Position numbers and translations under genes: made by a program
Sequence record: OR896827.1
Source of the DNA: Escherichia phage MikeNSara
Direction: 5' to 3' (one strand)
Length of the DNA: 50,759 nt
Shown here: positions 1 to 50,759 of the stretch, piece after piece
Position numbering within the stretch: the first letter of the stretch is position 1
Layout of the letters: each line of letters begins with the position of its first letter
Notes under the pieces: generated by a model
Told to the model about the DNA's origin: nothing
The model's database searches: none
Seen by the model: only the letters and a program-made list of their open reading frames with translations

Positions 1-1569
1 ATGATCATATGGGAAGATTTGACGGCGGCGCAAAAGCGAGCCATTAAAGAAATCAGTGAGCATTCATTCGAAAAGATGATCAGAATCTGGTTCCAATTAT
101 TGCAGGGGCAAAAATTCCAGAGCAACTGGCATTTTAGCTTATTGTGCAGTGAGGTAGAGAAGATCATCAATGGAGAGTCGCAGAATGTGATTTTCAACAT
201 TACGCCAGGTAGCGGTAAGACTGAGATTTTCTCGATCCACATGTCACCCTACGCGTCATTGAAAAGCCGAAAGGTGAGAAATCTTAACCTTTCGTTTAGT
301 GATGGCCTTGTCCAGCAAAACAGCAACCGGATAAAGGAGATTATTGGTTCTCCTGAGTGGCAAGAGCTATGGCCTGGTAAACTGGCAAAGGCGAGCGCTA
401 AAGATCTGATAGTCACCGAAGGCGGCAAGGTTAAATTGCAAGTTAACTCACGTTCTATTGGCGGCCAGGTAACAGGTTTGCGTGGCGGCTATATGGACGA
501 TGGTTTTACTGGTATGCTGGTTCTTGACGATCCAGACAAGCCGGATGATATGCTTTCTAAGGTCAAGCGTGAGGCGATCCACATGCGGTTAAAAAACACA
601 GTGCGATCGCGTCGAATGAAAGACACCACGCCGATTGTTATGGTGCAACAGCGACTACACGTTAATGATTCCACCTGGTTCATGCTTAATGGCGGGATGG
701 GTGGCATTGAGTTTAAAGTTGTGAGCATTCCGGCGCTGGTTACGAAAGAATACCGCGAAACGCTTCCTGATTGGTTGAAGCCTGAATTTGATCGTGATGT
801 GCTGTCAAGTAAGCCAGTGATGATAGATGGCGTCGCTCATTATTCATTTTGGCCTGCGAAGGAAAGCGCGGAGGAGTTGCTTGCATTGCGCAATGCAGAT
901 CCTTACACGTTCGCCAGCCAATACCAACAGCAACCAATCGCGCTTGGCGGTAACGTGTTTAAAACAGAGTGGTTCCAGTATTACGGCAGCGGAGAAAAGT
1001 GCGCACTACCAAAACCGGATCGCTTTGAATACACATTTATTACTGGAGATACCGCGCAGAAGGCCGGAGAGCTTAACGACTATTCGGTTTTTTGTTATTG
1101 GGGGATGTATAAGAATCGCGTTTACTTCATTGATGGCATTCGCGGAAAGTGGGAAGCGCCGGATCTTGAATTAAATTTTATTGCCTTCGTTAACCAGTGC
1201 TGGAAGCGCAATAAGGAGTGTGGCAGCTTGCGACGTATCCACATTGAGGATAAGGCCAGCGGCACGGGTTTGATTCAGGGGGCCAAAAAGAAGATCCCGA
1301 TTGATATAAATCCCGTTCAGCGAAGCAATGACAAGGTGACGCGAGCAATGGACGCCGCGCCAGTAATGAGGGCAGGACGTGTGGCGCTGCCAGAAAATCA
1401 CCCAATGCTGCCTGAGATACTGGCAGAGGTTGCAGCATTCACTTTTGATGATTCTCATCCCCATGATGATATTGTCGATAATATAGTTGATGCTGTTAAC
1501 GTCGAAATGAATTTGGCAGATGATCCGGTAGCAAGGATGAAAAAGCTGGCAGGTCTACGCAATAAATAG
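1..1569 (+). CDS. terminase large subunit
   Basis: 522-aa ORF with P-loop (TPGSGKT) near N-terminus and nuclease-like C-terminal half; sits immediately after the terminase-small-like ORF when the window is circularised; ATG at position 1 may be the true start. Confidence 0.8.
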   Translation: MIIWEDLTAAQKRAIKEISEHSFEKMIRIWFQLLQGQKFQSNWHFSLLCSEVEKIINGESQNVIFNITPGSGKTEIFSIHMSPYASLKSRKVRNLNLSFSDGLVQQNSNRIKEIIGSPEWQELWPGKLAKASAKDLIVTEGGKVKLQVNSRSIGGQVTGLRGGYMDDGFTGMLVLDDPDKPDDMLSKVKREAIHMRLKNTVRSRRMKDTTPIVMVQQRLHVNDSTWFMLNGGMGGIEFKVVSIPALVTKEYRETLPDWLKPEFDRDVLSSKPVMIDGVAHYSFWPAKESAEELLALRNADPYTFASQYQQQPIALGGNVFKTEWFQYYGSGEKCALPKPDRFEYTFITGDTAQKAGELNDYSVFCYWGMYKNRVYFIDGIRGKWEAPDLELNFIAFVNQCWKRNKECGSLRRIHIEDKASGTGLIQGAKKKIPIDINPVQRSNDKVTRAMDAAPVMRAGRVALPENHPMLPEILAEVAAFTFDDSHPHDDIVDNIVDAVNVEMNLADDPVARMKKLAGLRNK

Positions 1570-1585
1570 CACTAATTGCTAAAAA
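1566..1585 (+). repeat. degenerate copy of the 20-bp motif (no canonical spacer/-10)
   Basis: ATAGCACTAATTGCTAAAAA overlapping terminase stop TAG; followed by TATAAT after only 4 nt and then an intrinsic terminator. Confidence 0.5.
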
Positions 1586-1598
1586 GTTATATAATCAA

Positions 1599-1624
1599 GG
1601 CTGGATTTTTCCAGCCTTTTTTAT
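1599..1624 (+). terminator. intrinsic terminator
   Basis: GGCTGGA-loop-TCCAGCC stem followed by T-run. Confidence 0.6.
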
Positions 1625-1639
1625 TATGGAGATTTGACG

Positions 1640-2932
1640 ATGAGCGAAAAAACAAGGCTAGTTAAGGCCGATGGATACAACGAGATTTTCAAGGGTAGCA
1701 AGGGTAATGGGCGTGTAGAGTTGCCTTTCTTTATGCAAGGGTTCGAATACACCACGCACGCTGATTTTTACATTCGCGACGGCCTAGCAAAACGAATTAT
1801 CGACGTTGTTCCAGAAGAAATGGTGACGCCTGGATTTAATATTGATGGCGTGGAAGATGAGGAGAGTTTTAGATCTTTGTGGGATGAGAAGCGACTAAAC
1901 GATAAAATCATTGATGCGCTTTGCTGGTCGCGTCTTTTTGGTGGCGCTGCAATCGTGGCAATCGTTCAGGATGGCAGGTCGTTAAAGTCACCTGTAGCGC
2001 CTGGTGCAATCCTTGAAGATGTTCGCGTTTACGATCGCTTTCAGGTTAGGGTAGAAAAGCGCGAAACTAATCCACGCAAGGTACGATATGGTGAGCCATT
2101 AATTTACACCATTGCACCTGGTGCCGACTTGCCAGAATACCAGGTTCACTATTCGCGAGTCTGTATCATCGACGGTGAGCGGCTACCGAATCAGCGACGT
2201 CAGTCAAATGATGGTTGGGGTGAGTCGATCTTGAATAAGCGACTTGTTGAGGCCATTTGTGATTATAACTACTGCGAAAACTTAGCAACTCAATTGTTGC
2301 GACGTAAGCAACAGGCGGTATGGAAAGCTAAAGGTCTTGCTGATCTTTGTGATGATGATGATGGTGTTAACGCCGCACGTTTGCGCCTTGCTCAAGTTGA
2401 TGATGAGGGTGGCGTAGGCCGTGCGATCGGCATTGATGCGGAAGATGAGGAATATGATGTTTTAAATTCTGATATTTCCGGCGTCGATTCATTCCTGGAA
2501 AAGAAGATGGATCGCATTGTATCTCTTTCCGGCATCCATGAAATCATCCTCAAAAATAAGAACGTTGGCGGTGTTAGCGCGAGCCAAAACACGGCGCTTG
2601 AAACCTTCTACAAGCTGATCGATCGAAAGCGAAAGGAAGAATACAAACCAATCCTTGAATTTCTGATCCCGTTCCTGATTCAAGAGGAAGAATGGAGTAT
2701 TCAGTTTGCGCCGTTAAGCGTTCCCAGCGAAAAGGACCAGGCCGAGATCTTGAACAAGAATATTGATTCTTTGAGCAAGGCTATTGACGGTCAATTCATG
2801 GATACAGAGGAGGCGCGCGACACATTGCGAGCCATTGCGCCTAACGTTAAACTAAAAGACGGCAATAACATTAAATTACCTGAGCAGGACGTAGAGCCGG
2901 AGCCAGGAACAACCGAGGGTAACGATCAATGA
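1640..2932 (+). CDS. portal protein
   Basis: ~430-aa ORF directly after terminase; start moved from TTG 1634 to ATG 1640 with GGAG 8 nt upstream; acidic C-terminus typical of portals; position in morphogenesis order. Confidence 0.7.
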   Translation: MSEKTRLVKADGYNEIFKGSKGNGRVELPFFMQGFEYTTHADFYIRDGLAKRIIDVVPEEMVTPGFNIDGVEDEESFRSLWDEKRLNDKIIDALCWSRLFGGAAIVAIVQDGRSLKSPVAPGAILEDVRVYDRFQVRVEKRETNPRKVRYGEPLIYTIAPGADLPEYQVHYSRVCIIDGERLPNQRRQSNDGWGESILNKRLVEAICDYNYCENLATQLLRRKQQAVWKAKGLADLCDDDDGVNAARLRLAQVDDEGGVGRAIGIDAEDEEYDVLNSDISGVDSFLEKKMDRIVSLSGIHEIILKNKNVGGVSASQNTALETFYKLIDRKRKEEYKPILEFLIPFLIQEEEWSIQFAPLSVPSEKDQAEILNKNIDSLSKAIDGQFMDTEEARDTLRAIAPNVKLKDGNNIKLPEQDVEPEPGTTEGNDQ

Positions 2933-8019: not shown

Positions 8020-8387
8020 ACTACAATGAGATTGCAAGAATGGCTACGGCTGGGATTAACTTTTTCAGCGACGCTAACGGTATGTTTAAGTGCATCACGC
8101 AGCAGGGTGGAGTTGAGATTATCGGCGGAGAGGAAGTTACCAAGCCGGAGATTTCAGTGATGATAAAGGGGCTTGTTAGATCCCCTAGAACTAGAGAGGT
8201 TGACGGTGAAACAATCCGAGTAACCGACAAGTTGGGGATATTCACCAATGAAACTGAGATCAAAAATGGTTATCAGATTGAAATTGATGGCGAACGTTAT
8301 GTTGTCGTTGAAGCAAGACCAGTCAGGCAGACTAACATCACGGCGGCTTATCGTCCGATATTAAGGAGGATTGCTGTGCATGGCTGA
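8016..8387 (+). CDS. head-tail adaptor-like protein
   Basis: ATGA start/stop overlap with upstream gene; position. Confidence 0.45.
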
Positions 8388-8823
8388 TAACTATAAGATC
8401 AGGGAATTTCACGGTGATATAAGCAGGTGGATTGATTCAGTAAGCAGCGGCCTTGTTGATTGCGTTGAAATGTTCGCGACAAACGTCCACGAGGATCTTG
8501 TAAATCGCTCGCCAGTTGATACGGGCCGATATAAAGCCAACTGGCAGATAACAGCAAACAAGCCGCCGCTATATGCGCTCAACCAATACGATCGCGATGG
8601 TAGTAAAACCATTGCAGAAGGCAAGCGAGCAATATATGCAATCATGCGTGGCGGTGGCGCGGTGCGGTCAATCTATTTTTCAAACATGCTCATTTACGCC
8701 AACGCGCTTGAATACGGTCATTCAAAACAAGCGCCGTCCGGCGTACTTGGAATCGTGGCGGTAAAGCTGCGATCTTATATGGCTAAGGCAATAAAGGATT
8801 CGAGGGCAAAAAATGCACTATGA
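8380..8823 (+). CDS. neck / tail completion protein (HK97 gp10-like)
   Basis: RBS AGGAGG 9 nt upstream of ATG 8380; NRSPVDTGRYKANW motif typical of HK97 gp10 family. Confidence 0.5.
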   Translation: MADNYKIREFHGDISRWIDSVSSGLVDCVEMFATNVHEDLVNRSPVDTGRYKANWQITANKPPLYALNQYDRDGSKTIAEGKRAIYAIMRGGGAVRSIYFSNMLIYANALEYGHSKQAPSGVLGIVAVKLRSYMAKAIKDSRAKNAL

Positions 8824-9214
8824 TTTAATGTTGGCGGCAAGAAAGGCGCTGGCGGCTGAATATGAATCACGATTTAAGATAGCCTATGAAAACGTTGATT
8901 TTGTGCCGCCTGGAGATGGTTCTATGTGGTTAAAATTTAACTACATGGAAGCAGACACGGATCGCATATCTCTTGATAGAAAATGTGTTTCTTATATCGG
9001 TTTGGTTCAGGTTGGCATTGTCATTCCTCCTGGCGGTGGCACTGATAAAGCGCGTTTGCTGGCTAAAGAGATTGCGAGATTTTTCTATGATGGTAGAATG
9101 CTTGAAACTGGCTATATTAGCGAGGGGGCAAACGTCCACGCATTACTAAAAAGTGAAACAGGTTGGTTATTGCCGATCCGTTTCAGTGTTAGGCTTGACA
9201 CAAAGGAGGAATAA
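8813..9214 (+). CDS. tail terminator-like protein
   Basis: ORF overlapping upstream stop; position immediately before major tail protein. Confidence 0.45.
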   Translation: MHYDLMLAARKALAAEYESRFKIAYENVDFVPPGDGSMWLKFNYMEADTDRISLDRKCVSYIGLVQVGIVIPPGGGTDKARLLAKEIARFFYDGRMLETGYISEGANVHALLKSETGWLLPIRFSVRLDTKEE

Positions 9215-31187: not shown

Positions 31188-32303
31188 ATGAAAAATGTAA
31201 AAATTACAGATGAGCAATTCAAGATCGAACGGGCGGCGGGTAAGACATATAAACAGATCGCTCAAGAGTACGGGATGAATGTGAGAAGCGTCGAGCGTCG
31301 CGCTGCGCGTCTTGCAAAACAAGGACAGGTGTCAACCATTGGAGCGCCTGGTTTTGGTGTTCATGGTGAGTCAGTAATGACAGACAAAGAAGGCAATATA
31401 ATCCTCAAGTGGACAAAAACCAGCAAGGACAAAGAGCAATTAGAAGCATTGATGCGCGCAGCAATGGAGGCGTTTAGCGAGGAAGTGCCGCGATTAGATC
31501 CAGTTCCATTGCAGGAGCGTAACTATAATGAAACGCTTTCATTGTATCCGATCTTTGACATGCACTTAGGAGCTATGGCCCATAAGCACGAATGCGGAGA
31601 AAATTGGGATACAGCTACGGCTGAGCGCGTTATGAATAACTTTATCGACTATGCTTTGATGTGCGCACCGGACAGCGAAAAGGCTGTTATCCTGATTGGT
31701 GGCGATATGCTGCATAGCGACGGCCTGGAGGCTGTGACACCTGCAAGCGGTCACGTACTTGATCAAGATAGCCGATATGCAAAATTGGTTTACGTTGCAA
31801 TCCGCGCAATGCGTCGCGCAATTAATAAAATGCTGTTAAAGCATAAACATGTTGAGGTCCAGATCGTAGAGGGCAATCACGACCAATCAGGAATGATTTG
31901 GCTACGCGCAGCAATGGCGGCAGCATATGAGAACGAGCCGCGCGTTTACGTTGATGTTTCTCCTCGCGTTGTTCACCACACGCAATACGGAAAAACTTTC
32001 CTTGCGTACCATCACGGGCACACAGTGCGCAAACCTGAGACTTTGCTAATGATGTGCGCGTCAGATTGGCGGGAGGACTTCGGAAACTCAAAAACGATGT
32101 ATGCGCACGTAGGGCACTGGCATCACCAGACAGTGACGGAAACGTCGCTTGGGATCGTGGAGGTACATAGCACCCTGGCGGCAAAAGACGCATACGCCGC
32201 GCGAGGTGGCTGGAGATCTCGACGCCGTGCGGCGGTTATCATTTACGACAAAGAGCATGGAGAAGTCGGGCGATTTGTTCACTATCCAGAAATGATGAAT
32301 TGA
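31188..32303 (+). CDS. HTH-containing calcineurin-like metallophosphoesterase
   Basis: N-terminal HTH (KTYKQIAQEYGMNVRSVERRAARLAKQG) fused to phosphoesterase motifs DMHLG, GGDMLHSD, GNHD, HHGH, GHWHH; start moved from TTG 31038 to ATG 31188. Confidence 0.6.
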   Translation: MKNVKITDEQFKIERAAGKTYKQIAQEYGMNVRSVERRAARLAKQGQVSTIGAPGFGVHGESVMTDKEGNIILKWTKTSKDKEQLEALMRAAMEAFSEEVPRLDPVPLQERNYNETLSLYPIFDMHLGAMAHKHECGENWDTATAERVMNNFIDYALMCAPDSEKAVILIGGDMLHSDGLEAVTPASGHVLDQDSRYAKLVYVAIRAMRRAINKMLLKHKHVEVQIVEGNHDQSGMIWLRAAMAAAYENEPRVYVDVSPRVVHHTQYGKTFLAYHHGHTVRKPETLLMMCASDWREDFGNSKTMYAHVGHWHHQTVTETSLGIVEVHSTLAAKDAYAARGGWRSRRRAAVIIYDKEHGEVGRFVHYPEMMN

Positions 32304-32350
32304 TGAATTTTTATTTAAATCAATGACAAATTAAATCAAAAACTTGCAAA

Positions 32351-32378
32351 GGGGCGGCGTTTGTCGCCTCTTTTTTTT
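32351..32378 (+). terminator. intrinsic terminator before lysis cassette
   Basis: GC-rich hairpin followed by T8. Confidence 0.6.
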
Positions 32379-32448
32379 GTTTAATTTTTTACCATGTGCG
32401 TTTATCATGCGGTCAATATATTGACTTTAATTAATATGGAGAATAAAA

Positions 32449-32664
32449 ATGAAAGATTTTATTAACGCAGCTACCGCCGGATCTGGCGGTTCATCTATCG
32501 CAAGCGCCGCTACAGGGCAGTTAACCATTGCTATTGCCAGTTTTGTTTTAATGGCTGCATTCGGTGCGTGGGGCGCTTACCTTCGCTGGCGTGATAGTAA
32601 AAAATTCCACGAGGCGATCGAAAAAGGTGATATTCAAAAAGCTATTGAGATCAGGGGCAAGTAA
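32449..32664 (+). CDS. holin (pinholin-like, two TMDs)
   Basis: 71 aa; weakly hydrophobic G/A/S-rich TMD1, hydrophobic TMD2, charged C-terminus; immediately upstream of SAR endolysin. Confidence 0.7.
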
Positions 32665-33155
32665 TGAGCATAAAGAACAGGGTAGCGGCGGCGGCCTTTG
32701 GCGTTGCGGTTGCCTTGACTTCTCCACTTCTTGAAGAGATCGAAGGGGTAAGATACAAGCCATACAAAGATATTGCGGGAGTATGGACGGTTTGCGCAGG
32801 AATCACCGGACCAGATGTTATCCTGGGGAAAACGTACACTAAAAAAGAGTGTGATGATTTGTTGGCTAAGCATATCCATGTTGCTAAAAAGGAAGTTGAC
32901 AAGCAGGTTAAGGTTGACATTCCTGATAGTATGCGTGCAGCAATGTACTCATTCACTTATAATGCAGGCGTGGGAGCTTTCAGAAATTCAACAATGCTGA
33001 AACTCATCAACCAGGGGAAATTAAACGAGGCTTGCGATCAGCTTTATCGTTGGACGTATTACCATAACCCCAAAACAGGAAGGCGCGAGAAGTCTAAAGG
33101 CTTACTTAACAGGCGCAAGGTCGAATACAAATATTGCACAATGGATCTGAAATGA
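32664..33155 (+). CDS. SAR endolysin (GH24 lysozyme, phage 21 R / P1 Lyz type)
   Basis: N-terminal Ala/Gly-rich signal-anchor-release segment then [23 protein letters not shown] (E-D-T catalytic triad) and [10 protein letters not shown]; close resemblance to phage 21 R recalled from memory. Confidence 0.85.
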
Positions 33156-33547
33156 TGAGGAAATTTTTACTTACACCAATCGCAATGGCGGTGATCTTGT
33201 CTGGATGTTCAAGCGTTACGCCACTGACCGGATTAATCGGCAGTAAGCCGGAAATCACAGCACAGGCTGGCGCGGAGAACGTGAGGCAGGCAGTTGGCAT
33301 TACAGCAAAGCAGGACGCCAGCACAAAACAGAAAACCACAATAAAGGAATCTGCGGTTGACAAGGTGGACACGTCCAGCAAGAAGCATTTCACAACATCA
33401 ACCATTCAGGCCAATACCATCAAGGCAGACAAAATTCAGGTCGTGCAGGGTAATAACGGCAGATGGTACGATCCAATAATCATATGCGTGGTTGTGTTAA
33501 TTGTGCTGATTTGTCTTTACTGGAGAGAAAAGAAAAAGGAGGCTTAA
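33152..33547 (+). CDS. unimolecular spanin (u-spanin, T1 gp11-like)
   Basis: N-terminal lipoprotein signal with lipobox LSGC plus C-terminal transmembrane helix ([16 protein letters not shown]) and basic tail; overlaps endolysin stop (ATGATG); last lysis gene. Confidence 0.7.
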
Positions 33548-33564
33548 TGCCTCCTTTATTTTTA
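33530..33564. terminator. bidirectional terminator between spanin gene and convergent leftward early operon
   Basis: AGGAGGC-TTAAT-GCCTCCT with A-rich upstream and T-rich downstream flanks; overlaps spanin stop. Confidence 0.7.
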
Positions 33565-33786
33565 TGCGTCGGGCCACATATGAGTTTCGTTTGTTGGCTT
33601 GTTCGATTCGTCGTACCGCCTTACTTCAATGCTGCAAGTGTCGCCGTACATTTCTGCAATCTTGCGCTCATTTTCAACCGCCGATTGCTCACTCCATCCA
33701 AAATCCCTGTCGTAAATTGTCGGTATTTCAGCAGAAGATCCGTTGTCATGATTATATACGCGAACTACTAAAAACTTGCTGGACAT
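33562..33786 (-). CDS. hypothetical protein
   Basis: Minus-strand ORF ~35 nt downstream of motif-type promoter 33823..33866. Confidence 0.5.
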   Translation of the reverse strand: MSSKFLVVRVYNHDNGSSAEIPTIYDRDFGWSEQSAVENERKIAEMYGDTCSIEVRRYDESNKPTNETHMWPDA

Positions 33787-33822
33787 AATTTTACCTTTTG
33801 GTTGTTTCGTTTCGATGAAACA

Positions 33823-33866
33823 AATATACCCGACACTAGGCCGGGCGTTTTAACAAAAAATGCTAT
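33823..33866 (-). promoter_or_regulatory. motif-type promoter cassette (leftward)
   Basis: 20-mer 33847..33866 (one A/G change), 18-bp spacer identical to that of 30606..30649 cassette, -10 TATATT; gene ATG 33786 downstream. Confidence 0.55.
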
Positions 33867-34057
33867 TCCATACGCTTTACCGTAACCAGTAATACACCAT
33901 CATCATTGCATAAAACATGTTCAGTGGTGCTAAAAGCGCGCATATCTGAATAAAGTAGCGTAAGTAAAGCATGAATAAAATCCTCATGTGATATTGAATT
34001 TACGGCGCAGTGCTTCAAGATCTTGTCTATTAGCTTTTGCCTGGAACAATTCATCAT
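33863..34057 (-). CDS. hypothetical protein (uncertain)
   Basis: ORF whose stop is the TAG inside the 20-bp motif, as for other genes; GGGAG upstream of ATG; overlaps 3' end of 33984..34379 by 74 nt. Confidence 0.3.
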   Translation of the reverse strand: MMNCSRQKLIDKILKHCAVNSISHEDFIHALLTLLYSDMRAFSTTEHVLCNDDGVLLVTVKRME

Positions 34058-34379
34058 CGCCCATCTCCCCTATTCTCGCCATATCCCTGATCCAGTCGTT
34101 GCGCATACCATCCAGGCTATACAATTCGAATCCGAAAGGCCGCTTTGATGATCCTTTGGACCAGTATTTTCCGCAGACCCCATCTATATAACCAGCCGTC
34201 ATCATTCTTGCGCAAAATTCCTTAGATGCAAGGCTGGCGAACATTCGCGGCGTAAGTCCGGCGGCCCGCGCGAGCCGCTCGCATTCTCTATGCTGATAGA
34301 TAAATTTGGCTATGTGCTGCCTGTTAAACCAGTCGTATGACTCACACCATTTATACAGATCAAGCAAAAACATAATCAT
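33984..34379 (-). CDS. hypothetical protein
   Basis: ATGA overlap with upstream ATPase gene stop. Confidence 0.5.
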   Translation of the reverse strand: MIMFLLDLYKWCESYDWFNRQHIAKFIYQHRECERLARAAGLTPRMFASLASKEFCARMMTAGYIDGVCGKYWSKGSSKRPFGFELYSLDGMRNDWIRDMARIGEMGDDELFQAKANRQDLEALRRKFNIT

Positions 34380-38857: not shown

Positions 38858-38901
38858 AATATACCAATCAGAGGCGCATCGGTTTTAACAAAAAGTGCTA
38901 T
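38858..38901 (-). promoter_or_regulatory. motif-type promoter cassette (leftward)
   Basis: 20-mer 38882..38901, 18-bp spacer, -10 TATATT; gene ATG 38826 downstream. Confidence 0.5.
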
Positions 38902-39179
38902 TCAACAACAGATCCAGTTAAAGAGATAAGTGCTCTTGTGATCTTGTGTCTGCGATACTTACGCGCAACAACAGGAAGATTTTCACCGCTTTGATGCCCA
39001 AAAGTGATCGGCAACTCTTCTCCTCCAGACATACCGAACTCAGTGTGTGTTGGTTTGTTCCGCCAACCCTGGATAAAACCGAAACGGTCACGAGTTATGT
39101 ACCTGTAGTTGTTAGGTAGGGGCAATTGTATCCCCTCAAAATCCACTGTGTCGGTGTAGCTGTAAAACTTAGAACTCAT
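38898..39179 (-). CDS. hypothetical protein
   Basis: Start moved from TTG 39194 to ATG 39179 (RBS GGAG); stop is TAG of motif. Confidence 0.45.
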   Translation of the reverse strand: MSSKFYSYTDTVDFEGIQLPLPNNYRYITRDRFGFIQGWRNKPTHTEFGMSGGEELPITFGHQSGENLPVVARKYRRHKITRALISLTGSVVE

Positions 39180-39321
39180 AGTCAACAACTCCAAATTCGT
39201 TTACGATTTGCGCCTTGTAGAAGCCGCCATTTTTCGCCAGGTTGTAACAAGCGGCTACGGTTTCAAATTCGCGCGCTTCCGGCTGGCTGTTTTCGTTTTC
39301 CCAGGTAATCAGAGTAACCAT
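39169..39321 (-). CDS. hypothetical small protein (50 aa)
   Basis: Not in ORF track; RBS GAGGA 8 nt upstream of ATG 39321, ~27 nt downstream of motif promoter 39355..39398. Confidence 0.4.
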   Translation of the reverse strand: MVTLITWENENSQPEAREFETVAACYNLAKNGGFYKAQIVNEFGVVDYEF

Positions 39322-39354
39322 TTTCAAATCCTCGCATTCGTTGTCGATGCGTGT

Positions 39355-39398
39355 AATGTACAGGAATGCGAGGATTGAGTTTTAACAAAAAGTGCTAT
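39355..39398 (-). promoter_or_regulatory. motif-type promoter cassette (leftward)
   Basis: 20-mer 39379..39398, 18-bp spacer, -10 TACATT; small gene ATG 39321 downstream. Confidence 0.55.
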
Positions 39399-40624: not shown

Positions 40625-40658
40625 TGCTATCTCCTGAGCGGTTCGTTTCGATGTGTGT

Positions 40659-40702
40659 AATGTACCCGATCAGACGGCCTGAGTTTTAACAAAAAGTGCT
40701 AT
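40659..40702 (-). promoter_or_regulatory. motif-type promoter cassette (leftward)
   Basis: Reverse complement of canonical 20-mer at 40683..40702, 18-bp spacer, -10 TACATT (as read on minus strand); ATG 40624 downstream. Confidence 0.55.
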
Positions 40703-40733
40703 TTGACGGTTAGCGCCAGGATTGTGATCGAAA

Positions 40734-40824
40734 TAATCAAAAGTAATCATTCGTAATCAAATCACGTCAAAATGATGATTGCCTTTGCAAATTTGATGAG
40801 AAAAGTAATCACGTTTAATCATTG
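40734..40824. promoter_or_regulatory. iteron-like cluster of (G)TAATCA repeats
   Basis: At least six copies of TAATCA / AGTAATCA within ~90 bp, just upstream of the leftward motif promoter. Confidence 0.4.
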
Positions 40825-40959
40825 GTTGCAGGGGAGATAGTGAAACCTCCTCCTCTTGCCTCACTTTTCCGCCTGGCTGTCAGTGGTTGTTATGTTCCGT
40901 TCCCGCCTGTTCTTTTGTTGACCTTCCGCAAAATACGATAACAAAAAATAACAAACAAT

Positions 40960-41298
40960 ACCTATATAATACATTGAAAAATAAGGATTATTTATTTATA
41001 TGTATCTATATATTCTCTTTTGTTATCTTGGTTATTGTGGTATTTGGTGGGGGTATATAGTTTTTGTGTATCTGTATGTGTGTATGGGTATGTAGGGGCA
41101 TATATATCTATATGGCACTTTCCGCGAGAAAACTTCGATAACAGGCAATGATAACATTGATTTATAAGGAAAAATAACGCCTATATTGTTATTGTGCCAC
41201 CATATAAAATTGATAAAACACGCGGGAACAAGAAAAAACAGTTGACACATTAAATAGCATTATTGATAATGCCCACACCTAACAACCAGGAGGCAGAA
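40960..41298 (+). repeat. AT-rich control region, paralog B
   Basis: See paralog A; alternating purine-pyrimidine TG/TA tracts and A-tracts upstream of consensus sigma70 promoter. Confidence 0.6.
41242..41270 (+). promoter_or_regulatory. sigma70-type promoter (TTGACA-17-GATAAT) for rightward early operon
   Basis: Consensus -35, 17-bp spacer, GATAAT -10; A-tract upstream; ATG 41299 about 28 nt downstream. Confidence 0.65.
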
Positions 41299-41763
41299 AT
41301 GAGCGAGCAATCATTCACTGACACGCTGCGCCGTGCCGCTATTATGCTGGCTAATGGCGAGGAAGAGACGATCAAGATTCCTGACGCGTATTTGCAGGTC
41401 CACATGTTCGGCAAGAAGTCGGCAAGCAATCCGGCGGCCTACATTCGCCAGATCATGAGTCGAGTGCCAGAAGTCGCCGAGCGGGGGCGCGTATCCGTTA
41501 CCCGTGGCGTTTACGGGCCGGAAGATGAAAACTTCGGTAGCACTTTCTACGAGGTGCGGATTGTTGAAGGCCGTCGCAAGGTTTACAACAAAGAGGCACT
41601 GGAAAGGGCAGTACGCCAGGCTAAGCGCAAGGTTGCAGAGGCGATCATTGATATGTCACCCAACCTGGCAAACTATGCGCCGGAAGAGTACGAAACATTA
41701 TCAAAGGCCGTCGCTGACTTTCACGCGATGATCAAAAAAACTTTCCTGGAGGATGAGCAATGA
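41299..41763 (+). CDS. hypothetical early protein (first gene of rightward early operon)
   Basis: Start moved to ATG 41299 with RBS AGGAGG; ~25 nt downstream of TTGACA-17-GATAAT promoter. Confidence 0.55.
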   Translation: MSEQSFTDTLRRAAIMLANGEEETIKIPDAYLQVHMFGKKSASNPAAYIRQIMSRVPEVAERGRVSVTRGVYGPEDENFGSTFYEVRIVEGRRKVYNKEALERAVRQAKRKVAEAIIDMSPNLANYAPEEYETLSKAVADFHAMIKKTFLEDEQ

Positions 41764-42032
41764 AAAAGGCATTAATCAGTGTTTTGGTGGCAATGGCATT
41801 CCTGACCGGATGTAAAGAAGATGGCGCGCATGTTGGCAATGTGCAGATGGCTAACCCTGGCGATGACTACAACGTAAGGGAGCTATTCACCGCTGACGGA
41901 TGCACTGTTTACCGATTCTATGACGATCGCACTGTTTACTTTACCAACTGCAAGGGCGCGACTAGCTGGGAAGCATCGAAAAGCAATGGCAAAGGCACGA
42001 CAACAGAATATATGACCGTAGAAACAAAATAG
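41760..42032 (+). CDS. putative lipoprotein
   Basis: ATGA overlap; signal peptide with lipobox LTGC (MKKALISVLVAMAFLTGC). Confidence 0.55.
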   Translation: MKKALISVLVAMAFLTGCKEDGAHVGNVQMANPGDDYNVRELFTADGCTVYRFYDDRTVYFTNCKGATSWEASKSNGKGTTTEYMTVETK

Positions 42033-42104: not shown

Positions 42105-42290
42105 ATGGCACGTCGCATCACCAAAGACCTTAAAGTCCTGAACAAAGAAAACGTAGTTAAAATCCTGGTTATCTGGGGCTACAACGAAGAAACAGCAAAG
42201 CAGAAGGTAGAGGCAGGTTATGATCTGGCTGTAAAAGCAATGCCAAACGACGACGCCAAAGGCATTGCAAACTATGTAGCGTTCTTTTAA
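42105..42290 (+). CDS. hypothetical protein
   Basis: RBS GAGGAA; downstream of motif promoter 42029..42072. Confidence 0.5.
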   Translation: MARRITKDLKVLNKENVVKILVIWGYNEETAKQKVEAGYDLAVKAMPNDDAKGIANYVAFF

Positions 42291-42305
42291 TTAGCAGGTG
42301 AATAA

Positions 42306-42491
42306 ATGAAAACGAAATTAGCCCATAAATCAGAAATCAAGATCGGCGATACTGTGATTCACAACGGCGAGCTTAGAACGGTTGGCAAAGAGTCAATAAG
42401 CCACGATGAATTTATGGGGATCTTGTTGTTCGGTGACTCTTATCGTCTTGGTTACAAGATGGTTGAGCTTGTGGAAGAGGTAAAATTCTAA
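42306..42491 (+). CDS. hypothetical protein
   Basis: RBS AGGTGA. Confidence 0.5.
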   Translation: MKTKLAHKSEIKIGDTVIHNGELRTVGKESISHDEFMGILLFGDSYRLGYKMVELVEEVKF

Positions 42492-42535
42492 ATAGCACTT
42501 TTTGTTAAAACTCGAAAACGATAACCAGGCATAAT
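42492..42535 (+). promoter_or_regulatory. motif-type promoter cassette
   Basis: Canonical 20-mer, 18-bp spacer, CATAAT; gene 42590 downstream. Confidence 0.55.
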
Positions 42536-42589
42536 AAATCACATAGGGCGGCACGGCGTCGCCCACAAAACCAATCAGGAGAAAGCACC

Positions 42590-43480
42590 ATGTTAAAACT
42601 TACTGACATTAAATTCCCGATCACCTTCGAATCTCGCGGCGTTGGTCATTTCATGTTTACAGACGAGAAGACATGCACTAAGTTTAACGAATACGGAAGT
42701 CCAAACGCTTCAACAATGGAGATTGAACACTTCATTGAAGCGCACAATAAACACTACAACTCACTCAGAGACTACGGTTACGCAATGCCAGGCTACACCT
42801 GTTTCCACTACAAGCCATATAAAGGCCAGGTGTTGCCAGTGCGCTCACCGGAACGCGCAGAGATTCCGATGGTCAATATGAAAACCTGCGACTACAAAAA
42901 GCTGTGGTGCTTAAGTGTGGACAATATCAAGTATCCGATCACGTTCCACACGACTGGTAAGTCAACGATTCGCTACACATCACGCGACAATGGCGTTTAT
43001 AGCGATGGTACGAAATCAGAGTTGAAAGTTGATTTCTTTGTCAACGGTCACAACAAATTCAATCCGCACAACGAAGAGGATAAAGTGTACTACGTGGAAG
43101 ACATTACAAAACACTTGTTTGGAGAAACTCCATTCGGCGGCGGAAAGACGTCAATTCAAAAAATCATTGGCGAGGAGATCCACAAAGCGGCTGCCGAAAT
43201 GAAAGCGCCTGGAGGCTGGCGTATTGATAAGAGCGCCTTTGCAAATCAAGAAATCGTAACGCAGGGCGCGATTGAAGATATGCCAGTTGCAGCCACGCTA
43301 AAAGGAGTCCGGCTTGATGATGGTGTGTGGTTTGAATTAACGGCTACACCAAAGACGATCGAGATTCATGATGATGTTGTTATCCTCCTGCTTCACTACG
43401 GCGGCACTAAAAATCGGACTGTTGCAGGTGAGATCAGCATCAAGCGCGGAACGATGGTTAAGTGGAAGGTAAAGATTTGA
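42590..43480 (+). CDS. hypothetical protein with internal tandem duplication
   Basis: RBS AGGAG; two ~55-aa modules share IK(F/Y)PITF ... F(I/V).(A/G)HNK pattern. Confidence 0.55.
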   Translation: MLKLTDIKFPITFESRGVGHFMFTDEKTCTKFNEYGSPNASTMEIEHFIEAHNKHYNSLRDYGYAMPGYTCFHYKPYKGQVLPVRSPERAEIPMVNMKTCDYKKLWCLSVDNIKYPITFHTTGKSTIRYTSRDNGVYSDGTKSELKVDFFVNGHNKFNPHNEEDKVYYVEDITKHLFGETPFGGGKTSIQKIIGEEIHKAAAEMKAPGGWRIDKSAFANQEIVTQGAIEDMPVAATLKGVRLDDGVWFELTATPKTIEIHDDVVILLLHYGGTKNRTVAGEISIKRGTMVKWKVKI

Positions 43481-43556
43481 GTTTGTTCACTGCGGCGCAC
43501 GTCGCCGCATGGATCGGATTGTTTGCCTACCTGTTTAGATTTTATTGAGGTGAGAG

Positions 43557-43709
43557 ATGGCTACCTGGATTTTGCTGATTCTTATGATTGATGGCGGCGT
43601 TGACCATATCGAAATGAATAGCCAGCAATCTTGCATTGAGGCACGAGAGCAGATCAAGAACAACAACAGGTTTTATGCGTACACTCACACGCTATGTATT
43701 AAGAAATAG
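43557..43709 (+). CDS. hypothetical small membrane protein (50 aa)
   Basis: Not in ORF track; RBS GAGGTGAG; hydrophobic N-terminus; stop is TAG of motif 43706..43725. Confidence 0.35.
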   Translation: MATWILLILMIDGGVDHIEMNSQQSCIEAREQIKNNNRFYAYTHTLCIKK

Positions 43710-43748: not shown

Positions 43749-43778
43749 GGCCTCACTTTCAACGAAGGAGATCAAACG

Positions 43779-43997
43779 ATGTACATTAAAAAGAAGATGA
43801 AATGCGTTTCCGTTAACTATGCTTGCTCTGGCATGTTCAAGCCTGGCGAAATCTATACGGCGCAAAAACTGAAATCATCAACCGGATCTTTTTACGTGAG
43901 CAATAGTAAGGGGCATCGCATGTTCCTGAACGGCGGCGAAGGCACTAAGGTTATGGCACACGCTATGGTAATGGCTGAATTTGAGGAAGTGAAATAA
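43779..43997 (+). CDS. hypothetical protein
   Basis: Start moved to ATG 43779 with RBS AAGGAG, ~30 nt after motif promoter. Confidence 0.5.
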   Translation: MYIKKKMKCVSVNYACSGMFKPGEIYTAQKLKSSTGSFYVSNSKGHRMFLNGGEGTKVMAHAMVMAEFEEVK

Positions 43998-45005: not shown

Positions 45006-45305
45006 ATGTTAGTACGCAATGCGATGTATAAAATCAAATCTGATGAGCGTGTCCACCTGTTTCATGTGAACGAGCACGGCGACCTTTCGATCGCGATGTA
45101 CCGTAACGACCGAGGCGGTTGCGAGGAATCAATAGGCGGTAAAGTGCATCCAATGTTTTTCATGTTCCGCCACAAGGCCGATCAATACAGCCATCACAAC
45201 CACTGGATCGGTGACTTGCTGCAATATGGGAAATTGGTTGCGTCGCACGTTGTAGATCCTGGCAAGTTAACCAGCCGCCAGCTTCGCAAAATGGCGCGCA
45301 AATAG
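45006..45305 (+). CDS. hypothetical protein
   Basis: RBS GAGGAA; downstream of motif promoter 44931..44974. Confidence 0.5.
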   Translation: MLVRNAMYKIKSDERVHLFHVNEHGDLSIAMYRNDRGGCEESIGGKVHPMFFMFRHKADQYSHHNHWIGDLLQYGKLVASHVVDPGKLTSRQLRKMARK

Positions 45306-45376: not shown

Positions 45377-45640
45377 ATGGCTAACAAGATCGAGTTTTTT
45401 AAAGCGGTAGACATTATTGATGGCGCGCCTAGCTTCTTCGCTATCCATTCTATTGACGGCAAGGATATTGGGTACAACGTTATCCGTCGAGATGGAATAT
45501 CAAAACTTAGTGACCTGGTAGGCCATATTGTGTCAATCGGGAAATGCGCATGGCCCGATTCGCCACGAGAGCCGCGCCGCCGCGACATGATTAATCCTGA
45601 ATTGCTTTACACGCTGGTAGTAGAGGGAGAAAATAAATGA
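45377..45640 (+). CDS. hypothetical protein
   Basis: RBS GAGGA; downstream of motif promoter 45302..45345. Confidence 0.5.
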   Translation: MANKIEFFKAVDIIDGAPSFFAIHSIDGKDIGYNVIRRDGISKLSDLVGHIVSIGKCAWPDSPREPRRRDMINPELLYTLVVEGENK

Positions 45641-45822
45641 TTTGGTTACTTGCTTTTTTGGTTGTTTTTCTTTACATTTCAGGCTTGTTTACGTTCCGCG
45701 CGTTGGTGAAATATTCTGACGCGACAGACAAAGACGATAAAATCGTTCTCGCTTTCTGGTTTGTTTGGGTGTGGTTAGCAATTTACGAGATCATCAGAGA
45801 CAAACAGAAATTTGAGTGGTGA
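45637..45822 (+). CDS. hypothetical membrane protein
   Basis: ATGA overlap; two hydrophobic helices. Confidence 0.45.
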   Translation: MIWLLAFLVVFLYISGLFTFRALVKYSDATDKDDKIVLAFWFVWVWLAIYEIIRDKQKFEW

Positions 45823-45878
45823 TTCTTGCTATGGCGCATTCATGCAGTGCGCCATGTTGAGAAAACCTAAAGGGGGAA

Positions 45879-46031
45879 ATGATGCGTAACTTTGAAAAAA
45901 TCATTACCAAAAAGAAGCGTCGCGGGTACGATGAGCATGTGGAGCTTGTGAAAAAGCAACGCAAGAAGCGCAACGAAGACAAGAAGCGCGGGAAAAAATT
46001 TAATGCGATTTTTCGCTATGGAGGAAACTAA
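45879..46031 (+). CDS. hypothetical small basic protein (50 aa)
   Basis: Not in ORF track; RBS AAGGGGGA; K/R-rich. Confidence 0.35.
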   Translation: MMRNFEKIITKKKRRGYDEHVELVKKQRKKRNEDKKRGKKFNAIFRYGGN

Positions 46032-46223
46032 ATGCAATTGCCACCATTTAACGAAAAAAGCGAAGAGATTGCCAAAACTGCATGTCACCTTCGAGAGCTT
46101 GCCGACATGATAGAGCGCGGTCAGGTTATGATTGTCAATATGACTATCAAAAGCGAGAATAGAAATTTCAAGGTTTTAAGCGAGACAACAGAAATTACCG
46201 TCTTGAAAGCAAGGGGAGAGTAA
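46032..46223 (+). CDS. hypothetical protein
   Basis: TAAATG junction with previous small ORF. Confidence 0.45.
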   Translation: MQLPPFNEKSEEIAKTACHLRELADMIERGQVMIVNMTIKSENRNFKVLSETTEITVLKARGE

Positions 46224-46225
46224 TC

Positions 46226-46816
46226 ATGAAACGAGACATTATCATCCTTAATGGGCCTCCAGGTTGCGGGAAGGACACTATTGCAGCTTACCTAACAGGC
46301 CATCGTTACCCAGCGGTTAAGGCATCATTCAAGCAACCTATGTTCGACATTGCTTTTTCTATGCTTGGCCCGACTCGATACGATGAATTTATGGACCTGT
46401 ACAACGACCGAGAGCAAAAAGAAAAGCCTCAAGTTATCTTAGGCGGCAAGTCACCTCGACAATTCATGATCTGGATTAGCGAGGATGTAATGAAGCCAGT
46501 TTTTGGAGATCACTATTTCGGGCGTCGAATGGTTGAAGAGATTCACGAGATGTACCGAGATTTGGAGGTTGTGATCAGTGATGGCGGATTCCCCGAAGAA
46601 ATCAAGCCGCTCGTTAAGGCGGGGCATGAGGTGCATATTTGCCGATTGCATCGAGACGGCTTCACGTTTGCTGGCGATTCGAGAGACTACATTGACCTGA
46701 GCGGTTATCACTATCGAATCCATCACTATGATTTCCACTTGCAGGACGGTAAGCCGGAACTGGCTGTAAGCGAGATCGTCAATGCAGTCAAATGGAAGCA
46801 CACACAGATTAAATAG
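46226..46816 (+). CDS. P-loop nucleotide kinase (dNMP-kinase-like)
   Basis: Walker A GPPGCGKDT at N-terminus; overall pattern reminiscent of T4 gp1 dNMP kinase (from memory); RBS GGGGAGAG; stop is TAG of motif. Confidence 0.6.
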   Translation: MKRDIIILNGPPGCGKDTIAAYLTGHRYPAVKASFKQPMFDIAFSMLGPTRYDEFMDLYNDREQKEKPQVILGGKSPRQFMIWISEDVMKPVFGDHYFGRRMVEEIHEMYRDLEVVISDGGFPEEIKPLVKAGHEVHICRLHRDGFTFAGDSRDYIDLSGYHYRIHHYDFHLQDGKPELAVSEIVNAVKWKHTQIK

Positions 46817-46856
46817 CACGAATTGCTAAACGCGGGGTTATCGGCCCCGCTATAAT
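46813..46856 (+). promoter_or_regulatory. motif-type promoter cassette (variant 20-mer)
   Basis: ATAGCACGAATTGCTAAACG, 18-bp palindromic spacer, TATAAT; gene 46887 downstream. Confidence 0.5.
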
Positions 46857-46886
46857 GCTCGCATCAACAATCAAGAGGAAATCACA

Positions 46887-47267
46887 ATGGTTAACATCCG
46901 AAAAATCCGCGTCGGCACTAAATTCTTAGTTACTTATGCAATTCCAGAGAGCGGAATGAAGAAGGGCCAGATTGTTAAGGTTGATAGCAAAAGGTTCGGG
47001 ATCCCTGGTATCAATGGCTATCTAATCAATAGAGATCTTGGATTCGACGGATTCGCTATCCGTGCGCTTGAGGGTATTGTTGCCACTCTTAAACGAATCA
47101 CTAATCATCGCGGCTGCCCAATCAAGACGATTAAAGCGCCAATAAATTACGGCAAACTGGATAATCGTCGAATCCGCCGCCTGGCGCGTAACGCGTTAAA
47201 ATTCCGTGGCGTAGGCGATGATTTCTACTATGGATACAAGAGGATTGCGCGCAATGCTGGCAAATAA
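46887..47267 (+). CDS. hypothetical basic protein
   Basis: RBS AGAGGA; downstream of motif promoter 46813..46856. Confidence 0.5.
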   Translation: MVNIRKIRVGTKFLVTYAIPESGMKKGQIVKVDSKRFGIPGINGYLINRDLGFDGFAIRALEGIVATLKRITNHRGCPIKTIKAPINYGKLDNRRIRRLARNALKFRGVGDDFYYGYKRIARNAGK

Positions 47268-47366
47268 CAATAACGCAACGAATCCTAAGCCACCTTTTGA
47301 TTTTCATTCCGCAATGATTGCGGTATTATCAATGCTACTTTTTCTTTATAGCATGAGGGCGCTACT

Positions 47367-47615
47367 ATGGTTTTTAACGCATTGAAACGACTGTTTAAGC
47401 CGGAATACCGGATCGTATTTTGCCGCGACTGTTCTACTTATCATGTGCAGCGACGCAGCTTAGGCGGCAATTGGCACTATGTTACAGACGACTTTTTCGG
47501 CATCATTGCCACTGAATTTAAGTATTACAGTGATGCTTATATGTACGTGAAGAAGCGCCACCGCTTACGCAAGTGTCGTTTTTCCGTGCTGATTCACGTT
47601 AATGATTGTTACTGA
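47367..47615 (+). CDS. hypothetical protein (Cys-containing, possible zinc-binding)
   Basis: RBS GAGGG; CRDC...HRLRKC pattern. Confidence 0.45.
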   Translation: MVFNALKRLFKPEYRIVFCRDCSTYHVQRRSLGGNWHYVTDDFFGIIATEFKYYSDAYMYVKKRHRLRKCRFSVLIHVNDCY

Positions 47616-50157: not shown

Positions 50158-50183
50158 TCACCCGCCGCACGGCGGGTTTTTTA
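50158..50183 (+). terminator. intrinsic terminator before terminase small subunit gene
   Basis: CCCGCCG-CA-CGGCGGG plus T6. Confidence 0.7.
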
Positions 50184-50232
50184 TTGCCCGTTGTTTGGTA
50201 TAATCAGGCATCTAACCAAAGGAGGATTAACA

Positions 50233-50759
50233 ATGGCTAAAAACGTTGAGCCTGCTGTAAAGGCATTAAATTTCAAAGAGTTATATAATAAAACCTATGG
50301 CGATATTGTTACGCTAAACAACCGCCACAAGTACACGCCGGAACAGGTTTTTGATATGGCGATCCGCTATTTTACGTGGGCCGAAGAGAATCACATCCAG
50401 GCGGCTGAAACAGCTTCCTTTCAGGGTGACGTGTACGAGAGCAGAGTTTACAAGCCTCGCGTTTTCACGGTTAACGGATTCAGCTTGTATCTCGGCGTTA
50501 CTGAGGCGGCTGTAAGCAAATGGCGTAAAGAGCCTGGATTCTGCGATGTGATGGAGTTTGTTGATAAAGTAATTTACGAGCAAAAATTCCAGCTTGCGGC
50601 AAATAACATGATTAACGCTGGATTTATCGGTAAAGAGATCGGAGTAGAGAAGCCAGCAACAGTGAGCGTTGAAGCGAGCGCGGCAGCTAATGCAAGCATT
50701 GACGCAGTAACTGCCGATGAGGTGAAAGAGGCTGTGATTGATATTCTGGAGCAACTTTA
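50233..50759 (+). CDS. terminase small subunit (3' end runs off window; closes on base 1 if circularised)
   Basis: RBS AAAGGAGG; open frame from ATG 50233 to window end with no stop; HTH-like segment FTVNGFSLYLGVTEAAVSKWRK typical of small terminase DNA-binding domains; the last two bases TA plus window base 1 (A) form an in-frame TAA. Confidence 0.6.
   Translation, partial: MAKNVEPAVKALNFKELYNKTYGDIVTLNNRHKYTPEQVFDMAIRYFTWAEENHIQAAETASFQGDVYESRVYKPRVFTVNGFSLYLGVTEAAVSKWRKEPGFCDVMEFVDKVIYEQKFQLAANNMINAGFIGKEIGVEKPATVSVEASAAANASIDAVTADEVKEAVIDILEQL

What the first reader, a model, noticed from the sequence alone, without database searches (positions are those of the whole stretch)
50233..50759. 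Window ends join to close the terminase small subunit gene on the terminase large subunit start
The small-terminase-like ORF runs off the 3' end of the window with the partial codon TA. Base 1 of the window is A, the first base of the large-subunit ATG, so circular joining makes TAATG: an in-frame TAA stop overlapping the ATG. This implies the window is a complete, circularly permuted genome opened at the large terminase start, as expected for headful packaging.
Basis: inference. Interest (0 to 1): 0.45.

Follow-up and report, generated by a model that had tools for sequence, protein, structure and literature searches.

The report
Complete T1-like phage genome, cut at terminase
The two ends of this window really do join, closing the small terminase gene on the start of the large one. 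This only shows that the window is a complete genome of a well-known T1-like E. coli phage (genus Warwickvirus) whose circular map was opened, by annotation convention, at the large terminase gene.

Summary
Observation confirmed. The ORF from ATG 50233 runs 175 codons and ends in the partial codon TA. Base 1 supplies the A, giving TAATG: the terS stop overlaps the terL start by one base.

The same joint is continuous at 97-98% identity in dozens of GenBank Warwickvirus genomes (Drexlerviridae, Tempevirinae) and in two IMG/VR contigs. In those records it is annotated as terS/terL with a 1-nt overlap.

The test also works in reverse. The record ends of phage atuna abut inside the window at 32943|32942. 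So the window is a complete, non-redundant rotation of the genus map.

Base 1 = terL ATG is a record convention (Dnaapler-style reorientation). At least five relatives open at the same base, so it is not a physical end.

Headful packaging is well supported, but by homology, not by the closure:
- TerL is 65% and TerS 54% identical to those of T1, the classic pac/headful phage.
- TerS is a P22 gp3 homologue.
- A Warwickvirus was called "Headful (pac)" by PhageTermVirome.

By synteny with T1, the pac end probably lies about 9.9 kb upstream of terL, in the divergent non-coding region 40625-41299. It is probably not next to terS.

This is ordinary and already known.

The parts
50233..50759 (+). Small terminase gene (terS): 175 codons plus TA. 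The stop codon TAA is completed by window base 1.
   Evidence: sequence and translation. Pfam PF16677 E 3.8e-11. PHROG 606 E 2.3e-53. P22 gp3 in PDB 3P9A E 1.7e-15. 54% identical to T1 TerS. Same 528-nt CDS annotated in tonijn and atuna.
1..1569 (+). Large terminase gene (terL), 522 aa. Its ATG shares the A with the terS stop (TAATG).
   Evidence: PHROG 38 E 4.8e-107 and Pfam Terminase_6C E 7e-11. 65% identical to T1 TerL over 520 aa.
50748..50751 (+). GGAG, a Shine-Dalgarno-like element for terL inside the 3' end of terS, 8 nt before the ATG at base 1.
   Evidence: Read from the sequence. Conserved as CTGGAG in Warwickvirus and Hanrivervirus joints. Function is inferred.
50220..50225 (+). AGGAGG Shine-Dalgarno sequence for terS, 7 nt before ATG 50233.
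   Evidence: Read from the sequence. Function is inferred.
50160..50183 (+). Intrinsic-terminator-like hairpin (7 bp, 6 G-C) plus T-run, between the early small-ORF cluster and terS. It is followed by TGGTATAAT (50196-50204), which looks like an extended -10 element.
   Evidence: The terminator was called by the scan. Terminators are annotated at the same place in T1 (8322..8344) and G29-2. The -10 element was seen by eye only and was not called by the scan.
40625..41299 (.). Divergent, AT-rich non-coding region between the leftward and rightward early genes. It is syntenic with the left end of the T1 record (start of the annotated 2.8-kb terminal repeat) and is the predicted region of the pac end. 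This is an inference.
   Evidence: T1 repeat_region 1..2800, with terS at 8396. Colinearity of T1 and the window. The XY3 record is opened at window 40839|40840. Sequence, repeats and the shared motif CAAAAAGTGCTAT. No read data, so not demonstrated.

Best explanation
The window is the complete, non-redundant genome (50,759 bp) of a virulent T1-like coliphage of the genus Warwickvirus (Drexlerviridae, Tempevirinae). The assembly closed as a circle. The record was then linearised by convention at the first base of the large terminase gene. That cuts the last base off the upstream small terminase gene, because the two genes overlap as TAATG.

The overlap, together with a GGAG 8 nt upstream, most likely couples terL translation to terS translation (inferred).

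In the virion the DNA is expected to be linear, terminally redundant and partly circularly permuted, as in T1. TerS (a P22 gp3-type protein) would recognise a pac site on concatemers. TerL would cut there once and then fill successive heads with slightly more than one genome length.

By synteny with T1, the pac end is predicted in the divergent non-coding region 40625-41299, about 9.9 kb upstream of terL. Packaging would proceed in the + direction. The window's own ends are not physical ends.
For: **Joint and gene identities**.

**Joint continuous in relatives**: more than 40 records at about 97-98% identity and two IMG/VR contigs. The 1-nt overlap is annotated in tonijn, atuna, aalborv and G29-2.

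**Completeness**: reciprocal closure with atuna and 95% coverage. Whole-genome colinearity with T1 as a rotation. No terminal repeat in the window.

**Convention**:
- Other records open at the identical base.
- Others open at the terS ATG, which is the BASEL rule (PMC8594841).
- Others open at the primase CDS edge.
- The rest are scattered.
- Reorientation to terL by Dnaapler is described in PMC11783317.

**Headful packaging**:
- TerL 65% and TerS 54% identical to T1.
- T1 pac/headful packaging with terminal redundancy and permutation (PMC5238451; T1 record repeat_region 1..2800).
- Warwickvirus vB_EcoS-149_6D called 'Headful (pac)' by PhageTermVirome (PMC13507304).
- T1-like SU57 gave circular-type restriction maps and showed no cos site (PMC7718038).
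Against: - There are no reads or virion DNA data for this isolate, so terminal redundancy, permutation and the pac position are not demonstrated here.
- Circular closure is also produced by collapsed direct terminal repeats or by cos ends.
- PhageTerm failed to assign termini in some T1-like phages (KanT1, PMC13164509; 7WV, PMC13035648).
- No sequence match links the T1 left end to window 40625-41299 beyond architecture and a 13-nt motif.
- TerL has no sequence-level relative among solved structures, so its terminase class could not be checked that way.
Confidence: 0.88

Rival explanations
1. The genome is complete and closes, but virions carry fixed ends with exact direct terminal repeats (T7/T5-style) that collapsed during assembly. 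There would be no circular permutation.
For: Closure alone cannot exclude it (inference). The T1 record annotates a 2.8-kb repeat region starting at a defined position. T1 packaging series are short according to the classical literature (own knowledge), so many molecules share the pac end. PhageTerm on KanT1 only 'suggested terminal redundancy'.
Against: T1 is reported as pac/headful with circular permutation (PMC5238451). SU57 restriction patterns were those of a permuted genome. A congener was called 'Headful (pac)'. TerS is a homologue of P22 gp3, the small terminase of a pac/headful phage.
Confidence: 0.07
2. The genome has cohesive (cos) ends. The circle comes from annealed or ligated cos ends or from concatemer reads.
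For: Closure is compatible with it (inference).
Against: No cos behaviour was seen in T1-like SU57 in heat/cool restriction tests. The terminase proteins are orthologues of T1's. TerS belongs to the P22 gp3 family, not the lambda Nu1 type.
Confidence: 0.02
3. The window is only a fragment, or a mis-joined or mis-trimmed assembly, and the TAATG closure is coincidental.
For: By chance, a 2-base overhang TA followed by A would arise in roughly 1-2% of random cuts (own estimate).
Against: The joint is base-for-base continuous in dozens of independent genomes and two metagenomic contigs. Closure with atuna is reciprocal, lengths are near-identical (50,759 vs 50,732) and 95% is covered. All T1 modules are present in T1 order.
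Confidence: 0.01

Closest known systems
Warwickvirus phages (Drexlerviridae, Tempevirinae), e.g. atuna MN850620, tonnikala MN850613, tonijn MN850641, vB_EcoS-95 MF564201, swan01 LT841304
   Same: 97-98% nucleotide identity over about 90-100% of each half of the window. Same gene order and the same terS/terL TAATG overlap. Genome lengths 48.5-52.7 kb.
   Different: No identical record was found in the collection searched; the best match is about 97.9%. Small mosaic replacements lie in the early-gene region: window 38900-39379, 41813-42026, 42518-43703, 43766-43994 and 45037-45245 are not matched in atuna. The record opening point differs.
Escherichia phage T1 (Tunavirus, NC_005833), the classic pac-site headful packager
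   Same: Whole-genome colinearity at 64-72% nucleotide identity in conserved genes. TerL 65% and TerS 54% amino-acid identity. A terminator lies just upstream of terS. A divergent AT-rich non-coding region separates the leftward and rightward early genes.
   Different: In T1, terS and terL do not overlap: terS ends at 8920, the annotated terL starts at 8945, and the homologous ATG is at 8960, with a G+C-rich hairpin between them. The T1 record is opened at the start of its annotated 2.8-kb terminal-repeat region, presumably the pac end, not at terL. T1's early accessory genes are largely different.
Salmonella phage P22 gp3 small terminase (PDB 3P9A; Pfam PF16677)
   Same: The TerS core (residues 34-144) is homologous, E 1.7e-15. 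P22 is the textbook pac/headful phage.
   Different: The 22-bp P22 pac sequence lies inside P22 gene 3; both the sequence and its location are recalled from memory. It has no match in the window with up to 3 mismatches. In T1-like phages the packaging start is annotated about 8.4 kb upstream of terS.

Membership tests
Complete phage genome record that is an arbitrary rotation of a circular map | The last and first bases of the record are adjacent in independent relatives, with nothing missing or duplicated. | tested here: met
   One-piece 1400/1400-nt alignments across the joint in more than 40 records. L003 5711|5712 equals window 1|50759. atuna 33553|33554 equals window 1|50759.
Complete phage genome record that is an arbitrary rotation of a circular map | Reciprocal: the record ends of relatives are adjacent inside this window. 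| tested here: met
   atuna 50732|1 equals window 32943|32942. XY3 51345|1 equals window 40839|40840.
Complete phage genome record that is an arbitrary rotation of a circular map | No residual terminal duplication, and a length typical of the genus. | tested here: met
   No exact terminal repeat of 5-399 nt. 50,759 bp against 48.5-52.7 kb in relatives.
T1-like pac-site headful packaging (terminally redundant, partly circularly permuted virion DNA) | Terminase subunits orthologous to those of T1. | tested here: met
   TerL 65% identity over 520 aa. TerS 54% identity over 169 aa.
T1-like pac-site headful packaging (terminally redundant, partly circularly permuted virion DNA) | Virion DNA longer than the unique genome, with permuted ends. 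| not testable with these tools
   This needs reads or virion DNA. Indirect support only: a congener was called 'Headful (pac)', and SU57 restriction data fit permutation.
T1-like pac-site headful packaging (terminally redundant, partly circularly permuted virion DNA) | An identifiable pac site. | tested here: inconclusive
   Only a syntenic candidate region (40625-41299) with T1-like architecture was found. The P22 pac 22-mer is absent.
P22 gp3-type small terminase (Pfam PF16677) | A match to the family profile above Pfam's gathering score. | tested here: met
   43.5 bits against a cutoff of 29.4, E 3.8e-11. PDB 3P9A E 1.7e-15.
Translationally coupled overlapping gene pair (stop/start TAATG) | The stop of the upstream gene overlaps the start of the downstream gene, and the overlap is conserved in relatives. 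| tested here: met
   TAATG is present in the window, tonijn, atuna, L003, L004, aalborv and G29-2. It is absent in T1.
Translationally coupled overlapping gene pair (stop/start TAATG) | terL translation depends on terS translation. | not testable with these tools
   This needs reporter fusions or a premature stop in terS.

The most novel reading that the evidence does not exclude
The mildly novel readings still open are these. (1) This Warwickvirus, whose TerS is P22 gp3-like, may place its pac site somewhere other than the T1-type left end. It could lie inside or next to terS as in P22, which would make packaging initiation different within Drexlerviridae. (2) The exact terS-stop/terL-start joint may be a homing-endonuclease target. 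BEK26 and BEK12A carry an endonuclease gene inserted precisely there, with flanks resembling another genus, and the window would hold the empty, cleavable allele.
Probability: 0.1. Interest if true: 0.25.

Novelty: already known. Interest (0 to 1): 0.06.

Why it matters
It matters mainly for bookkeeping.
- The window can be treated as a whole, circularly closed phage genome.
- The 'truncated' terS at the 3' end is intact, not a pseudogene or a contig break.
- The coordinates of base 1 carry no biological meaning.

It also corrects one expectation. In T1-like phages the packaging start is probably about 10 kb upstream of the terminase genes, not beside them. Nothing here challenges current knowledge of phage packaging.

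Tried and rejected
- **P22 pac sequence.** I searched the window for the P22 pac 22-mer (recalled from memory) with up to 3 mismatches and found 0 matches. There is no evidence for a P22-type pac in terS.
- **TerL against PDB sequences.** No hit at E<=0.01, so no terminase class could be assigned by solved relatives.
- **Nucleotide or translated match of the T1 left end (1-540) to the window.** None beyond scattered short tblastx hits. Only the architecture and a 13-nt motif are shared.
- **Cluster of relatives' record starts about 23-25 kb upstream of terL.** I considered that this might mark real ends. It is rejected: those records simply begin at the edge of the primase CDS, which is a copied convention.
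- **Sigma-70 promoter upstream of terS.** The scan did not call one. The TGGTATAAT extended -10 was seen by eye only.
- **Residual terminal repeat in the window.** None found.
- **Expensive protein-database and structure tools.** Not used, because near-identical annotated genomes settled the question.

Full report
**1. The observation**

The sequence is as described.
- ATG at 50233 is preceded by AGGAGG at 50220-50225.
- It opens a frame that runs without a stop to the last base of the window: 527 nt, i.e. 175 codons plus the dinucleotide TA.
- The window begins ATGATCATATGG.... Joining end to start gives ...GAGCAACTT-TAATG-ATCATA, so a TAA stop shares its last A with the ATG of ORF 1..1569.
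- The 175-aa product is a small terminase: Pfam PF16677 GP3_package E 3.8e-11, above the gathering score; PHROG 606 E 2.3e-53; P22 gp3 in PDB 3P9A E 1.7e-15.
- ORF 1..1569 (522 aa) is a large terminase: PHROG 38 E 4.8e-107; Pfam Terminase_6C.
- ATG-1 is the first possible start after the upstream in-frame TGA, so the terL start is unambiguous.

**2. Is the joint real?**

Yes.
- An artificial 1400-nt joint (last 700 + first 700 nt) aligns in a single piece over its full length at about 97-98% identity in more than 40 phage records. All are Escherichia or Shigella phages of the genus Warwickvirus (Drexlerviridae, Tempevirinae).
- In these records the genes are annotated as small and large terminase subunits sharing one base. 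Examples are tonijn 45498..46025 / 46025..47593 and atuna 33553..34080 / 31985..33553.
- Two IMG/VR contigs contain the exact 27-mer across the joint. One of them, L003, aligns 5711|5712 to window 1|50759, so no base is missing or duplicated.
- The overlap is also present in the sister genus Hanrivervirus (aalborv, G29-2...GATATAATG...). It is absent in T1, where a short spacer with a G+C-rich hairpin separates the genes.

**3. Is the window a complete genome?**

Yes.
- The closest records (atuna, tonnikala, vB_Eco_Sip, NorthRox) are 97-98% identical over about 95-100% of each half of the window. No identical record was found.
- A full comparison with atuna (50,732 bp) shows the window (50,759 bp) is its reverse-complemented rotation. 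atuna 33553|33554 equals window 1|50759.
- The closure is reciprocal: atuna's own record ends 50732|1 equal window 32943|32942.
- 48,436 of 50,759 bases are covered. The gaps are small mosaic replacements in the early-gene region.
- The XY3 record ends map to window 40839|40840.
- The window is colinear with T1 across all modules, again as a rotation: T1 8960 maps to window 1, and T1 8435-8817 maps to window 50269-50657.
- The window has no residual terminal repeat and no tRNA genes.

**4. Why base 1 is the terL ATG**

It is a record convention, not a physical end.
- Several relatives open at exactly the same base: NorthRox and Tuinin, tunus OR912983, and ExeQuayColi and MartyMcPhage by coordinate arithmetic.
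- Others open at the terS ATG. These are the BASEL phages and EC167/195/125. The BASEL paper states that sequences were linearised at the small terminase gene or its operon (PMC8594841).
- Others open at an edge of the primase CDS: swan01, the JLBYU series and JK16.
- Two open at the T1-type left end (XY3, Kalemo).
- The Danish wastewater isolates are opened at scattered positions.
- Re-circularising phage assemblies to start at terL with Dnaapler is described in PMC11783317.

**5. Packaging mechanism**

Closure of an assembly is necessary for a circularly permuted genome but not sufficient. Collapsed direct terminal repeats and cos ends also give circles.

The conclusion is nevertheless well supported by other evidence.
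- TerL is 65% and TerS 54% identical to the T1 proteins.
- T1 recognises a pac site and packages by headfuls, which gives terminal redundancy and circular permutation (PMC5238451).
- The T1 RefSeq record annotates a 2.8-kb repeat region at its left end.
- T1-like SU57 gave restriction patterns of a permuted genome and showed no cos site (PMC7718038).
- The Warwickvirus vB_EcoS-149_6D was scored 'Headful (pac)' by PhageTermVirome (PMC13507304).
- TerS is homologous to P22 gp3, the small terminase of the archetypal pac phage.

Against over-confidence, PhageTerm failed to define termini in KanT1 and 7WV, and no reads exist here.

**6. Where the real end probably is**

- In T1 the annotated terminal-repeat region starts at record base 1. 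That is about 8.4 kb upstream of terS, inside the divergent non-coding region between the leftward genes (ST1...) and the rightward early genes (ST77...).
- The syntenic region in the window is the 675-bp AT-rich non-coding stretch 40625..41299. The same 675-bp gap is present in atuna at 42146..42821.
- It has short repeated motifs (GTAATCA, GATAACA), TA-rich tracts and the motif CAAAAAGTGCTAT, which it shares with T1 position 106.
- I therefore predict a packaging start there, about 9.9 kb upstream of terL, with packaging proceeding in the + direction. This is inference from synteny only.
- The P22 pac 22-mer (recalled from memory) is absent.

**7. How the joint itself most likely works (inferred)**

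- A terminator-like hairpin at 50160-50183 closes the early small-ORF cluster. Terminators are annotated at the same place in T1 and G29-2.
- terS has a strong Shine-Dalgarno sequence.
- terL has only a GGAG (50748-50751) inside terS, and its ATG overlaps the terS stop. That is the usual arrangement for termination-reinitiation coupling, which would tie TerL synthesis to TerS synthesis.

**8. Comparison and verdict**

This is a new isolate-level member of a densely sampled genus. Its terminase joint is identical to those already annotated in GenBank. The finding is correct and useful for interpreting the window: the genome is complete, terS is not truncated, and the ends are arbitrary. It is ordinary and already known.

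Noticed in passing
window 50759|1 (joint); L010 1001-1492 (BEK26 MN158216.1 31067-31558): In the Warwickvirus phages BEK26 and BEK12A, a CDS annotated 'homing endonuclease' is inserted exactly at the terS-stop/terL-start joint. Its ATG takes over the TAATG overlap. The flanks (terS ...GGAGAAGATATA, terL ATGCTAATTTGGGAAGAC) resemble the Hanrivervirus allele more than the window's allele, which looks like a co-conversion tract. The window has the empty site.
   Followed up: partly
window 40625-41299: A 675-bp divergent, AT-rich non-coding region with repeated GTAATCA and GATAACA motifs and TA-rich tracts. Its architecture and a CAAAAAGTGCTAT motif resemble the T1 region spanning its record ends. 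It is a candidate for early promoters, an origin and/or pac.
   Followed up: partly
window 50160-50204: A bidirectional terminator-like hairpin (ACCCGCCG-CACG-CGGCGGGT plus T-run) is followed immediately by TGGTATAAT (extended -10-like) and then the terS Shine-Dalgarno sequence. The consensus scan called the terminator but not the promoter.
   Followed up: partly
window 38900-39379, 41813-42026, 42518-43703, 43766-43994, 45037-45245: These early-region segments have no megablast match in the closest relative, atuna, while the rest of the genome is 97-99% identical. They are mosaic accessory-gene replacements among small ORFs of unknown function.
   Followed up: no
search results for window 1-25000, 25001-50000 and the joint: 19-21 GenBank records named 'Campylobacter phage' (host C. 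jejuni) match this T1-like coliphage DNA at 60-80% identity. This is unexpected for Campylobacter phages and may reflect mislabelled or contaminating Drexlerviridae.
   Followed up: no
window 50314-50754, minus strand: A 146-aa TTG-initiated ORF lies antisense within terS. It is not annotated in the relatives whose terS region was inspected and is most likely spurious.
   Followed up: no
relatives' record starts: Many Warwickvirus records from different labs start at the edge of the DNA primase CDS, equivalent to about window 25.6-26.6 kb. This is a copied convention that could be mistaken for a conserved physical end.
   Followed up: yes
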